Shown here one piece after another: positions 19,362 through 46,196 of a stretch of 64,000 nt of DNA; within the stretch, counting starts at the first letter, position 1; every line of letters begins with the position of its first letter. Origin of the DNA: a virus (lineage: Duplodnaviria > Caudoviricetes). The DNA is taken from IMG/VR virus record IMGVR_UViG_3300047551_002158, one strand, 5' to 3'. The position numbers and the translations under genes are program-made. A model generated the notes under the pieces. It did not search any database and was not told where the DNA came from. It was given only the letters and a program-made list of their open reading frames with translations.

Positions 19362-19472
19362 CATTTGAGCACCAGTCCCTTATAATACTCTCATAGGCAG
19401 CGGGGGTCCAAACTCCGCATAAATCCTTCACCCCCCAAGCCTCTTTATAATGCTCAAACAGGGGGGTCTCTT

Positions 19473-22265: not shown

Positions 22266-22338
22266 GCTCCTTTAGCAATCTGGTGAATGCAGCGAACTCA
22301 TAATTCGCCTGAGGCGTGTTCGATCCACGCAAGGAGCA
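22266..22338 (+). tRNA. tRNA with CAT anticodon (elongator Met or Ile2)
   Basis: GCGAA-CT-CAT-AA-TTCGC; paired G1-C72, so not an initiator tRNA. Confidence 0.88.
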
Positions 22339-22414
22339 CTGGACGCTTACTAAAGCGTCCTACTTGACTTTCAAACATCACTTCTCTATAATACTAAGGT
22401 CAACAATCAAAACA

Positions 22415-44749: not shown

Positions 44750-45060
44750 ACAGAAGTTTAAGAACAGTAGTGGATCAATATCATTTCACTAAAGTTACTT
44801 TTTCGGTTGATGGCGAACCAAAAGTAATTGGAAGACTTTTAGATATTAGTGATTATGGATTTTGTATTACAATAAAGCAAATGATATCTAAATTTGAAGT
44901 TGAGGATAGGGGTCTTTTGAGTTTAGAAAAGGATGGAAAAGTAATCAAAATACCTGTAACCTTAAAGTGGATAGATCCAACAGATGCCACTCTAAGGTGT
45001 ATAGGTTTTCAGAGTAAATATAATCTAACCTTTTCGGAATTAGGTTCTTATATTAAATAA
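44740..45060 (+). CDS. PilZ-domain-like protein
   Basis: N-terminal DRSLR, LLDISDYG (D-x-S-x-x-G), V.W...IGFQ beta-barrel pattern. Confidence 0.6.
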   Translation: MEIDRSLRTVVDQYHFTKVTFSVDGEPKVIGRLLDISDYGFCITIKQMISKFEVEDRGLLSLEKDGKVIKIPVTLKWIDPTDATLRCIGFQSKYNLTFSELGSYIK

Positions 45061-45389
45061 GGTTCAGCAATACCCTCATTCAACATTCTTTCGTTGACTG
45101 TGACTGGATCGCCAACAAGATAAAGAACTCCAAGTATTCTTCCATACTTGTCTTCTTTAAATGTTTCAATAATCCACTCTCCTTCACGGGAGAGTTCTTT
45201 TTCTAACCATAATCTTGCTTCAATTCCTTTTTTCTTTTCCTCTATATTTAAAGTTCTTGTTTCTGCAGCATTAATATCTTTCAGACGAACTCTGTGAGAA
45301 ACAGTCATCCAAAAACCTAAATCAATATCAAGATCAACAGTGTCGCCATCAATTACTCTATTGATCTTTTTTATTTTGTACTGGTACAT
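45048..45389 (-). CDS. thermonuclease (SNase-like)
   Basis: RVIDGDT, RVRLKDINAAE, DKYGRIL, NERMLNEG. Confidence 0.88.
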   Translation of the reverse strand: MYQYKIKKINRVIDGDTVDLDIDLGFWMTVSHRVRLKDINAAETRTLNIEEKKKGIEARLWLEKELSREGEWIIETFKEDKYGRILGVLYLVGDPVTVNERMLNEGIAEPYLI

Positions 45390-45586
45390 TGAGTTTCCTT
45401 TAGTGTTCTTTTCTTTGTAACTGTTTTATATATTTCTATTCGGTCTCCAACTTGCCAATCAGAAAATCCATTACACCGAACACCACATTCAAATCCTGCT
45501 GATACTTCTTTTACATCTTTATCGCCACGACGAAGGGAATCTAAATTTCCTTCAAAAACAATTTCTTCCTTTTTATTTTTCTTCAT
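45371..45586 (-). CDS. stand-alone fragment of the translation initiation factor IF2 C-terminal (C2) domain
   Basis: VFEGNLDSLRRGDKDVKEVSAGFECGVRCNGFSDWQVGDRIEIYKTVTKKRTL matches the recalled cyanobacterial InfB C-terminus. Confidence 0.8.
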   Translation of the reverse strand: MKKNKKEEIVFEGNLDSLRRGDKDVKEVSAGFECGVRCNGFSDWQVGDRIEIYKTVTKKRTLKETQCTSTK

Positions 45587-45692
45587 TTTGCACCTCATCG
45601 AAGGATAACTTAAGTATGTAGTAAATGACCCAAGCAACTCCAACAAGTCCAATACCTAATAATATATTTACACTCCAAACTACATTATTCAT
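45573..45692 (-). CDS. 39-aa membrane peptide
   Basis: MNNVVWSVNILLGIGLVGVAWVIYYILKLSFDEVQNEEK; ATGA-coupled; read manually. Confidence 0.6.
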   Translation of the reverse strand: MNNVVWSVNILLGIGLVGVAWVIYYILKLSFDEVQNEEK

Positions 45693-45889
45693 TTTTTCTC
45701 TACAGCGTCAAGAATTCTATCCAGTTTTCTTTCTTGTTCTTCTTTAACTTCTTGTAAAGTTTTTTCTATCTGGATAATTTTTTGTTCTTGAATGGTAGTC
45801 TTCTGCTGTAATCCCCAGAAGCTAGTGAAACCACCAATGATGGCAGCACCAAGTAATGAAGTTGCTATAGTTCCCATATTAAGTTCCAT
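45689..45889 (-). CDS. small membrane-anchored coiled-coil protein
   Basis: N-terminal TM segment followed by heptads. Confidence 0.65.
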   Translation of the reverse strand: MELNMGTIATSLLGAAIIGGFTSFWGLQQKTTIQEQKIIQIEKTLQEVKEEQERKLDRILDAVEKK

Positions 45890-45896
45890 TTTAATT

Positions 45897-46091
45897 TTAG
45901 TATCTACCCTCTTGTTTATGTATCCAAGTTTTGAGTTCGTGGAGATAGTTTCTCAACATATCTGCTTTTTGTAGATGCCAAACATCACCACTCTTGAAGT
46001 ATTCTTGAGTGTGGTTATCTATTGCTTTGAGAATGTTATGTATCGGTGCGTTCCAAGGTTCACGCTTGGGTGTGTTCCATTCTCTTGGCAT
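45897..46091 (-). CDS. conserved cyanophage hypothetical protein
   Basis: MPREWNTPKREPWNAPIH...LKTWI. Confidence 0.75.
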   Translation of the reverse strand: MPREWNTPKREPWNAPIHNILKAIDNHTQEYFKSGDVWHLQKADMLRNYLHELKTWIHKQEGRY

Positions 46092-46094
46092 ATA

Positions 46095-46196
46095 TCACTT
46101 TTTCTTACCTCCGTTCTTTGCCTTTTTCGCAGTCGCATTACCTTGATTTTGTTTTGAAGGTCCTTTCTTACCCTTCTTGTTTGGCGACTTAGACAT
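46095..46196 (-). CDS. 33-aa highly basic peptide
   Basis: MSKSPNKKGKKGPSKQNQGNATAKKAKNGGKKK; AAGGA RBS; read manually. Confidence 0.65.
   Translation of the reverse strand: MSKSPNKKGKKGPSKQNQGNATAKKAKNGGKKK

What the first reader, a model, noticed from the sequence alone, without database searches (positions are those of the whole stretch)
45371..45586. Phage mini-protein consisting only of the IF2 fMet-tRNA-binding end
Seen: 71 aa matching the last ~55-60 residues of cyanobacterial IF2, keeping SLRR and ECG. It is translationally coupled on both sides in the window's only minus-strand operon (basic peptide, membrane peptides, SNase), so it looks like a maintained gene rather than stray host DNA. 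Known: the C2 domain recognises the fMet-ACCA end and these motifs contribute. Inference: a dominant-negative or decoy for initiator tRNA, a mimic that titrates a defence factor targeting IF2, or a tRNA-end-binding partner for the adjacent nuclease.
Basis: partly seen in the sequence, partly recalled or inferred. Interest (0 to 1): 0.68.

Follow-up and report, generated by a model that had tools for sequence, protein, structure and literature searches.

The report
Cyanophage gene for half of IF2's tRNA-binding barrel
A group of uncultured, mostly freshwater cyanobacterial viruses carries a tiny, strongly conserved gene copied from the last 55 residues of the host's translation initiation factor IF2; that is only half of the domain that holds the initiator tRNA, so what it does is open and worth testing.

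Summary
Window 45371-45586 (minus strand) encodes a 71-aa protein. Residues 7-62 match the extreme C-terminus of IF2 (TIGR00487 positions 529-586 of 587, E 2.7e-16; PDB IF2 chains, E 5.6e-11).

It is a maintained gene, not stray host DNA:
- About 28 clusters of 62-70-aa homologues are 77-97% identical, on phage contigs up to 80 kb.
- dN/dS is about 0.1 at dS about 0.8.
- The phage copies form one clade (support 100/98) inside cyanobacterial IF2.
- No sampled cyanobacterial IF2 is more than 62% identical to it.

It covers only the second half of the six-stranded C2 barrel (strands 4-6). It keeps the strand 4-5 loop, the ECG motif and the GD box, but lacks four of the five published fMet-pocket residues. 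It also carries a family-specific Lys/Asp swap in the loop (K702 to D/N).

Linkage to the nuclease is frequent but not obligatory.

My best reading, at moderate confidence, is a small basic protein that must pair up to complete its fold. It would then bind an RNA 3' end or the IF2-C2 site and tune host initiation. No binding was shown. I found no description in the literature I could search. The same stretch was noted once before in this scan, from an overlapping window of the same genome.

The parts
45371..45586 (-). mini-IF2 gene: 71 aa plus stop
   Evidence: Homologues of 62-70 aa. dN/dS about 0.1.
45401..45568 (-). IF2-homologous core, residues 7-62. It corresponds to strands 4-6 of the IF2 C2 barrel.
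   Evidence: The strand boundaries were mapped on an AF2 model of a cyanobacterial C2 domain (pLDDT 85.7), which matches solved IF2 structures.
45518..45538 (-). Loop motif S-L-R-R-G-D-K (residues 17-23), the equivalent of IF2 697-703. R19, R20, G21 and K23 are invariant in the phage family. IF2's Lys-Asp is swapped to Asp/Asn-Lys.
45482..45496 (-). G-F-E-C-G (residues 31-35). ECG corresponds to IF2 E713/C714/G715. It is invariant in the phage family and in IF2.
   Evidence: PMC4611024 gives E713 as part of the fMet pocket.
45428..45451 (-). V-G-D-R-I-E-I-Y (residues 46-53): the GD box and the last barrel strand.
   Evidence: The GD box as a hallmark of RIFT/DPBB barrels is from PMC11258233.
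45374..45397 (-). Lineage-specific C-terminal tail (last 8 codons), created by loss of the ancestral stop. It is not conserved in relatives.
45573..45692 (-). Upstream 39-aa single-pass membrane peptide gene. It overlaps the mini-IF2 start by 14 nt. Homologues (41-91% identity) lie upstream of the mini-gene in 26 of the 29 related loci.
45689..45889 (-). 66-aa gene: N-terminal membrane segment plus a charged helical tail. It is a variable member of the operon.
45897..46091 (-). 64-aa protein of unknown function, conserved in many cyanophages (S-SRM01 76%, S-CBS4 74%, S-B64, S-H35 and others).
46095..46196 (-). 33-aa very basic peptide, the first gene of the operon.
45048..45389 (-). 113-aa SNase-type endonuclease, the last gene of the operon.
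   Evidence: Pfam SNase E 2.4e-10. phrog_452 endonuclease E 6.6e-34. Widespread in cyanomyoviruses.

Best explanation
**Shown.**
- This is an accessory gene of a clade of uncultured T4-like cyanophages.
- It was captured once from a cyanobacterial infB gene and reduced to the last three strands (4-6) of IF2's C2 barrel.
- It has since been kept under strong purifying selection as a protein of about 7-8 kDa. The window's copy is basic (pI 9.1).

**Inferred.**
- A half barrel cannot bury its invariant hydrophobic face on its own. The protein therefore most likely works as an obligate pair, with itself or with a partner.
- It would use the parts it retains from IF2 to bind an RNA 3' end. Those parts are the invariant Arg/Lys loop, the ECG motif and the Lys-rich tails.
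- The most plausible target is the acceptor end of initiator tRNA, or the site that IF2-C2 occupies in the initiation complex. Binding there would tune host translation initiation during infection.
- The fixed Lys/Asp swap in the loop suggests altered binding, not a straight copy of IF2's.
For: **Homology and extent:**

**A family of consistent length in phage contexts.** These contexts include IMG/VR contigs, psbA next to the operon in L013, and lysozyme and tail-fibre-assembly neighbours.

**Purifying selection.** Mean dN is 0.073 and mean dS is 0.771 over 20 distinct sequences. This is comparable to omega 0.08 reported for the IF2 core (bioRxiv 10.64898/2026.02.08.704698).

**Stronger conservation than its neighbours.** The mini-protein is 77-97% identical across loci where SNase is 40-46%, the 64-aa protein about 60% and the membrane peptide 41-58% identical.

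**Retention of IF2's conserved residues.** It keeps every residue that is near-invariant in the C-half of IF2 except K702. The strand 4-5 loop and ECG are invariant in the family.

**One origin inside cyanobacterial IF2.** The clade has support 100/98 on a stem of 0.29 substitutions per site.

**Precedents from papers.**
- Isolated C2 binds fMet, fMet-AMP and fMet-ACCAAC (PMC4611024).
- A free-standing translation-factor-type barrel, Pbp11, binds tRNA and needs its basic N-terminal tail to do so (PMC9540759).
- Engineered half-RIFT peptides fold only as homodimers and bind nucleic acids (PMC11258233).
Against: - No binding of any kind was shown.
- Four of the five published fMet-pocket residues and the strand 1-2 loop are absent, so a monomer cannot reproduce IF2's fMet site (PMC4611024).
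- The IF2-conserved K702 is replaced by an acidic or neutral residue.
- General sequestration of initiator tRNA would also hurt phage protein synthesis.
- No complementary N-half of the barrel is encoded in the window or in 29 related loci.
- The phage tRNA-Met(CAT) in the window has no initiator features.
Confidence: 0.4

Rival explanations
1. Co-opted scaffold. The half barrel has been recruited as a small binding module for a job unrelated to translation, for example in the lysis or membrane cassette it sits in, or as a general nucleic-acid binder. The IF2-like residues would be kept only because they hold the local fold together.
For: - Most retained IF2-invariant residues are Gly or hydrophobic fold determinants.
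- The gene lies in a variable island of small membrane-peptide genes beside the endolysin genes.
- It moves between contexts, as in L011.
- Engineered RIFT halves bind DNA and RNA without specificity (PMC11258233).
Against: - The charged surface loop (R19, R20, K23, D24, K26) and E33 are invariant, not only the core residues.
- The loop and ECG lie where IF2 meets the tRNA end (PMC4611024).
Confidence: 0.25
2. Fragment complementation of host IF2 (dominant negative). The free strands 4-6 pair with strands 1-3 of host IF2's C2 domain, for instance while the host's own last 55 residues are still in the ribosomal tunnel. This would give IF2 an altered tRNA-binding loop (K702D/N).
For: - The fragment begins exactly at the strand 3/4 boundary of C2.
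- It keeps the residues that pack against the N-half.
- Its sequence is held much more tightly than its neighbours, as expected if it must fit a conserved host protein.
- C2 is the extreme C-terminus of IF2.
Against: - There is no direct evidence.
- Several positions that are conserved in host IF2 are changed in the phage family: E46 to V/I, A52 to I, L55 to T and G37 to Q/K/R. These changes could equally disfavour pairing with the host half.
- Displacing a covalently attached half is energetically hard.
Confidence: 0.12
3. Decoy for a host factor that recognises the C-terminus of IF2, such as a defence sensor, protease or kinase. The phage protein would titrate it.
For: It is a host-derived surface mimic under strong constraint. 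Host surveillance of translation factors has precedent: the Lit protease with EF-Tu and the T4 Gol peptide. That example is my own knowledge and was not tested here.
Against: No such IF2-directed factor is known to me or was found in the papers searched. The PADLOC library was not searched. No defence-related gene was seen among the neighbours.
Confidence: 0.1
4. Targeting subunit for the neighbouring SNase-type nuclease. It would bring the nuclease to tRNA 3' ends or to ribosome-bound RNA.
For: The mini-gene and SNase are in one operon in 20 of the 29 related loci and in the window. In the window's subclade they abut or overlap.
Against: - In most relatives a 70-aa membrane-protein gene lies between them.
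- L022 and L011 carry the mini-gene with no SNase in the 0.7-3 kb of downstream sequence available.
- The SNase is only 40-46% identical between subclades, whereas the mini-protein is about 80%.
- The same nuclease family is widespread in cyanomyoviruses that lack the mini-gene.
Confidence: 0.08
5. Decaying scrap of host DNA with no function.
For: It is a fragment of a host gene, and it falls below the curated thresholds of Pfam and NCBIfam.
Against: - dN/dS is about 0.1 at dS about 0.8.
- Start and length are conserved in at least 28 clusters.
- The clade is monophyletic and no host copy is more than 62% identical.
Confidence: 0.02

Closest known systems
C2 domain (domain IV) of bacterial IF2, e.g. 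G. stearothermophilus IF2-C2 (PDB 1D1N)
   Same: It is clearly homologous to residues about 688-741. It has the same SL(K/R)R loop, ECG motif and GD box. The ancestor was a cyanobacterial infB gene.
   Different: It is only the second half of the six-stranded barrel. It has no G, C1 or N-terminal domains. It lacks R654, Q655, F657 and G667 of the fMet pocket. K702 is D/N, with the neighbouring Asp turned into Lys. It stands alone and is phage-encoded.
Pbp11 (Q9UZY3) of Thermococcales, PDB 7ANU
   Same: It is a free-standing protein of about 10 kDa with the translation-factor domain-II type barrel. It binds tRNA in gel shifts, and a basic N-terminal tail is needed for that (PMC9540759). It was recovered as a structural neighbour of the host C2 model (ranks 16-17).
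   Different: Pbp11 is a complete, monomeric six-stranded barrel of an archaeal cell and is linked to the proteasome. The phage protein is a half barrel with direct sequence descent from IF2.
Engineered homodimeric RIFT/DPBB half-barrel peptides, and the symmetric RIFT protein Phs018
   Same: The phage protein is a unit of about 40-60 residues with a GD box that corresponds to one pseudo-symmetric half of a translation-factor barrel. Such halves fold only as homodimers and bind nucleic acids (PMC11258233).
   Different: Those are laboratory designs, and the paper states that all modern RIFT barrels are single-chain. Self-association of the phage protein has not been shown.
Host-derived translation genes of phages: cyanophage peptide deformylase, virus-encoded ribosomal proteins, phage tRNA sets
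   Same: These are also genes taken from the host's protein-synthesis apparatus and kept by phages (PMC6375957). This phage also carries 10 tRNA genes.
   Different: Those are whole, functional copies. This is half a domain that cannot do IF2's job.

Membership tests
IF2 / InfB (NCBIfam TIGR00487, equivalog) | Score at or above the curated cut-off over the whole model | tested here: not met
   59.5 bits against a cut-off of 424.4. Only profile positions 529-586 of 587 are matched.
IF2 / InfB | GTPase (G) domain and C1 domain | tested here: not met
   The protein has 71 aa. The only Pfam hit is a weak GTP_EFTU_D2 match.
IF2 / InfB | Complete six-stranded C2 barrel with the fMet pocket R654, Q655, F657, G667, E713 | tested here: not met
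   It aligns only to 1d1n residues 46-92. It starts at the strand 3/4 boundary of a modelled host C2. Only E713 is retained. Pocket residues are from PMC4611024.
IF2 / InfB | Conserved C-half motifs SL(K/R)R, ECG and GD | tested here: met
   They are invariant in the phage family and in IF2.
Pfam GTP_EFTU_D2 (PF03144) | Gathering threshold | tested here: not met
   17.6 bits against 30.3. Profile positions 28-71 of 73 are matched.
Host-derived accessory gene of cyanophages | Located in phage genomes | tested here: met
   - Six IMG/VR contigs carry it.
- Neighbours are phage lysozyme, a tail-fibre assembly-like gene and RNR.
- psbA lies beside the operon in L013.
- The nearest isolate is Synechococcus phage S-SRM01.
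Host-derived accessory gene of cyanophages | Descent from a host gene, one origin | tested here: met
   The phage clade has support 100/98 and lies inside cyanobacterial IF2. The sister lineage is unresolved. Hosts carry the homologous segment only as the end of an infB frame of about 1000 aa.
Host-derived accessory gene of cyanophages | Purifying selection | tested here: met
   dN/dS is about 0.1 over 190 pairs of 20 distinct sequences.
Homodimeric RIFT half-barrel | One pseudo-symmetric half unit with a GD box | tested here: met
   Strands 4-6 with VGDRIEIY. The definition is from PMC11258233.
Homodimeric RIFT half-barrel | Self-association into a closed barrel | not testable with these tools
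   This needs SEC-MALS, AUC, NMR or a crystal structure. See Tried and rejected for the prediction attempt.
Free-standing tRNA-binding translation-factor barrel (Pbp11-like) | Complete monomeric barrel | tested here: not met
   It is only half the barrel.
Free-standing tRNA-binding translation-factor barrel (Pbp11-like) | tRNA binding | not testable with these tools
   This needs a gel shift or filter binding.

The most novel reading that the evidence does not exclude
The protein is a natural obligate homodimer. Two copies of the half barrel interlace into a symmetric RIFT-type barrel, a form so far known only from laboratory reconstructions. The dimer would present two copies of IF2's tRNA-end loop, and the phage would use it to capture or shield the acceptor end of initiator tRNA, or to block the IF2-C2 site, reprogramming host initiation.
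Probability: 0.2. Interest if true: 0.85.

Novelty: new variant of a known kind. Interest (0 to 1): 0.62.

Why it matters
Phages are known to carry whole translation genes: tRNAs, peptide deformylase, ribosomal proteins. A half-domain of an essential initiation factor, held under selection about as strong as that on IF2 itself, is a different thing. It must act by binding something, so it points to an undescribed way for a virus to touch translation initiation.

It is also a natural test of an idea from protein evolution, that translation-factor barrels arose from self-pairing half-size peptides. At 66-71 residues it is easy to synthesise and assay. The gene is widespread in freshwater metagenomes (13 studies hold part of the stretch), so any function would bear on cyanobacterial mortality in lakes.

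Tried and rejected
- **Self-pairing prediction** (two copies, family alignment). The tool's verdict was 'no answer': median score 0.39 against a mark of 0.42. This is evidence neither for nor against.
- **AF2 monomer with the 29-sequence family alignment**. Mean pLDDT was 50, so the model is not interpretable and I did not use it for a fold search.
- **A complementary N-half of the barrel.** An HMM of IF2 strands 1-3, run against six-frame translations of the window and 29 loci, found nothing below E 8.
- **Sequence symmetry between the two halves of C2** (hhalign). None was detectable (probability 0.4%).
- **tblastn against 50,697 phage records**. All hits are 33-51% identical, and where the records are annotated they lie in infB genes. 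They look like host infB in mislabelled or contaminated 'phage' records and huge-phage bins. I did not inspect each one. None is a family member, so no cultured phage in that set carries the gene.
- **109-aa 'IF-2' proteins in the protein database** (cluster of P0031, 178 members). I first suspected these were stand-alone C2 genes. They are artefacts of broken picocyanobacterial infB assemblies, with N gaps or frameshifts upstream of an internal Met.
- **Other short IF2-like proteins among the representatives**. They look like contig-end or chimeric fragments and form no coherent second family.
- **+1 frameshift fusion of the membrane peptide to the mini-protein at the A-rich overlap.** I rejected this because relatives have ATGA overlaps, or whole genes inserted between the two.
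- **Phage tRNA-Met(CAT) at 22266-22339 as a private initiator.** I rejected this because it has a G1-C72 pair and no GGG/CCC anticodon stem.
- **Promoter and terminator scan**. Nothing exceeded the shuffled expectation.
- **Whole-genome search.** No genome is held for this window.
- **ESM Atlas**. It returned only unnamed clusters of 62-70 aa, probably the family itself.
- **RNA-library contigs**. One 151-nt contig of an rRNA-depleted metatranscriptome covers 45398-45542 with one mismatch. Another study covers 45919-46185. Stretches without cover mean nothing, and DNA carry-over cannot be excluded.

Full report
**The sequence.**
- On the minus strand, an ORF runs from ATG 45586 to a TAA at 45371-45373 and encodes 71 residues. 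A GAGG lies 6-9 nt upstream of the ATG.
- The ATG sits 14 nt inside the end of a 39-aa membrane-peptide gene. The stop lies 19 nt inside a 113-aa SNase-type nuclease gene.
- The gene is the fifth of six small minus-strand genes between about 45048 and 46196, in a window otherwise read on the plus strand. In order they are a basic 33-aa peptide, a 64-aa protein, a 66-aa membrane protein, the 39-aa membrane peptide, this gene, and the SNase.
- The operon converges on a peptidase C39-like gene, a phage lysozyme and a PilZ-like gene.

**Homology to IF2 is solid.**
- Residues 7-62 align without gaps to the last 55 residues of solved bacterial IF2s (E 5.6e-11 to 1.5e-8) and to residues 46-92 of the 99-residue C2 domain 1D1N.
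- NCBIfam's IF-2 equivalog matches at E 2.7e-16, but only over its last 58 positions and far below its cut-off.
- Pfam gives a sub-threshold match to the second half of GTP_EFTU_D2.
- An HMM that I built from the C-halves of 25 full-length IF2s scores it at 100 bits.

**It is a family, and it is viral.**
- A search restricted to proteins of similar length found about 28 clusters (at 90% identity) of 62-70 residues that are 77-97% identical to it. Some lie on contigs of 41-80 kb.
- An exhaustive HMMER pass over 1.8 billion representatives shows that they collapse into a single 50% cluster. Everything else it found is IF2 or a fragment of IF2.
- I fetched 29 loci. Six are IMG/VR viral contigs.
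- L013 has psbA directly beside the operon.
- The nearest cultured relative of the region is the freshwater Synechococcus myovirus S-SRM01. At the same place beside its endolysins it has the 64-aa gene but neither the mini-gene nor the SNase.
- PHROGs has no family for the protein. No record among 50,697 GenBank phage records carries it.
- Runs from 13 studies, mostly freshwater plus aquaculture, groundwater and sediment, hold part of the 1.5-kb stretch.

**It is under selection.**
- Over a gap-free core of 56 codons, 20 distinct DNA sequences give mean dN 0.073 and mean dS 0.771. The ratio is about 0.1.
- That is similar to the 0.08 reported for the IF2 core (bioRxiv 10.64898/2026.02.08.704698).
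- In most loci the open frame begins 0-4 codons before the conserved Met, which pins the start.
- Across the clade the protein stays about 80% identical or more. Its neighbours drift to 40-46% (SNase), about 60% (the 64-aa protein) and 41-58% (the membrane peptide).
- The window's last 5-7 residues are an accident of this lineage. A 3-nt deletion plus substitutions removed the ancestral stop that sits just before the SNase ATG in its closest relatives.

**Origin.**
- In 246 of 251 sampled cyanobacterial genomes the protein matches. In the roughly 150 matches listed it lies at the end of a long infB open frame, about 900-1200 aa wherever the contig holds the whole gene. Identity is at most 62%.
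- The best matches are in genomes of 1.6-2.9 Mb, the size of picocyanobacteria.
- The phage family shares the Cys at position 38, the F-S-x-W stretch and the V-T-K-K-R-T-L tail with Prochlorococcus-type IF2.
- A maximum-likelihood tree of the 59 alignable columns puts all phage copies in one clade (100/98), on a stem of 0.29 substitutions per site, inside cyanobacterial IF2. The sister lineage is not resolved.
- So there was one old capture, then divergence, then stasis.

**What part of IF2 it is.**
- The review by Gualerzi and Pon (PMC4611024, section 15) describes C2 as six antiparallel strands.
- According to it, fMet-tRNA binds near the strand 1-2 and strand 4-5 loops, and the fMet pocket is formed by R654, Q655, F657, G667 and E713.
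- With 1D1N residue 46 equal to IF2 residue 688, the phage E33 is E713. The other four pocket residues lie upstream of the fragment.
- An AF2 model of a cyanobacterial C2 domain (pLDDT 85.7) has strands at 11-28, 31-44, 48-53, 56-68, 75-77, 81-86 and 97-106. It superposes on solved IF2s at TM 0.85-0.90.
- The phage protein starts exactly at model residue 55-56, just after the turn that ends the third strand. It is therefore the clean C-terminal half of the barrel.
- Within that half it keeps every residue that is near-invariant in IF2, with one exception. IF2's Lys-Asp (K702-D703) is Asp/Asn-Lys in all family members.
- Further fixed differences from cyanobacterial IF2 are G37 to Q/K/R, E46 to V/I, A52 to I and L55 to T.
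- The charged loop (R19, R20, G21, K23, D24, K26), GFECG, C38 and W44 are invariant in the family.
- No gene for the missing N-half is detectable in the window or in any of the 29 loci.

**Context is suggestive but loose.**
- The usual order is 64-aa gene, membrane peptide, mini-gene, then SNase. In most relatives a 70-aa membrane-protein gene lies between the mini-gene and the SNase.
- In one subclade a lipase-like gene (GHSLGG) separates the membrane peptide from the mini-gene.
- In L022 the SNase is replaced by other genes.
- In L011 the mini-gene sits among unrelated small genes.
- The gene therefore behaves as a self-contained module in a variable island, not as a fixed subunit of the nuclease.

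**How it probably works.**
- Fourteen or so invariant hydrophobic residues that line the barrel in IF2 cannot be buried by three strands alone. Some pairing is therefore required.
- Translation-factor barrels of this type have two-fold pseudo-symmetry, and engineered half-size peptides fold only as interlaced homodimers and bind nucleic acids (PMC11258233). Self-pairing is therefore the simplest guess, but I could not test it (see Tried and rejected).
- The conserved basic loop, the ECG motif and the Lys-rich ends (pI 9.1) point to an RNA ligand.
- The descent from IF2-C2 makes the acceptor end of initiator tRNA, or the C2 site of the initiation complex, the first candidates.
- Pbp11 of Thermococcales shows that a free-standing barrel of this class can bind tRNA through the barrel plus a basic tail (PMC9540759).
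- Against a simple 'fMet-tRNA decoy': most of the fMet pocket is missing and K702 is changed.
- I put about 0.4 on a tRNA or initiation-related binding role. The remainder is split as follows: 0.25 on a co-opted scaffold, 0.12 on complementation of host IF2, 0.1 on a decoy for a host factor, 0.08 on a nuclease adaptor and 0.02 on junk.

**Expression.** One contig from an rRNA-depleted metatranscriptome covers 45398-45542 with a single mismatch. A second RNA study covers the first two genes of the operon. This is a weak hint only.

**Novelty.** In the papers I could search I found no report of infB-derived genes in cyanophages, or of half-domain IF2 genes in any phage. The kind is known: host translation genes in phages. 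The form is not: half a domain, stand-alone and highly constrained.

Noticed in passing
window 45048-45389 (-): In this subclade the SNase reads N-A-A-E where the relatives' 137-aa form (e.g. L001:6407-6820) has the canonical D-T-P-E calcium/catalytic motif. The nuclease may be weakened or altered. The two forms are only 40-46% identical.
   Followed up: partly
window 45371-45397 (-): Loss of the ancestral stop codon (a 3-nt deletion plus substitutions relative to L013-L017) lengthens the mini-protein by 5-7 residues and creates the 19-nt overlap with the SNase gene.
   Followed up: yes
window 19431-19467 (+): Rfam abiF RNA motif, 54 bits against a gathering score of 37. It lies immediately upstream of the phage's cluster of 10 tRNA genes.
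   Followed up: no
window 22266-22339 (+): ARAGORN calls a tRNA-Met(CAT) that did not reach Rfam's tRNA gathering score. It has a G1-C72 pair and no GGG/CCC anticodon stem, so it is not an initiator. It may be an elongator tRNA-Met or a lysidine-type tRNA-Ile.
   Followed up: partly
P0031/P0192 cluster; L045, L047, L049: 178 database proteins of exactly 109 aa named 'IF-2' are not stand-alone C2 domains. They arise where picocyanobacterial infB assemblies are broken by N gaps or frameshifts just upstream of an internal Met.
   Followed up: yes
L020:2411-3007 and L022:492-1088: In one subclade a 198-aa lipase class 3-like gene (GHSLGG) is inserted between the membrane peptide and the mini-gene. 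Further accessory genes lie upstream on the same strand, so the region is a variable island.
   Followed up: no
window 45897-46091 (-): The 64-aa protein of unknown function is conserved in many cyanophages of different morphotypes (S-SRM01, the siphovirus S-CBS4, S-B64, S-H35, S-RIM4, S-SZBM1). It has no PHROG or Pfam family.
   Followed up: partly
window 46095-46196 (-): The 33-aa peptide is about 40% Lys and rich in Gly, and is conserved at 86-91% in L013 and L015. S-SRM01 has a gene annotated 'histone H1' nearby.
   Followed up: no
L011:2279-2506: A family member sits in a wholly different neighbourhood of small same-strand genes, with no membrane peptide and no SNase. This shows that the gene moves as a unit.
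   Followed up: partly
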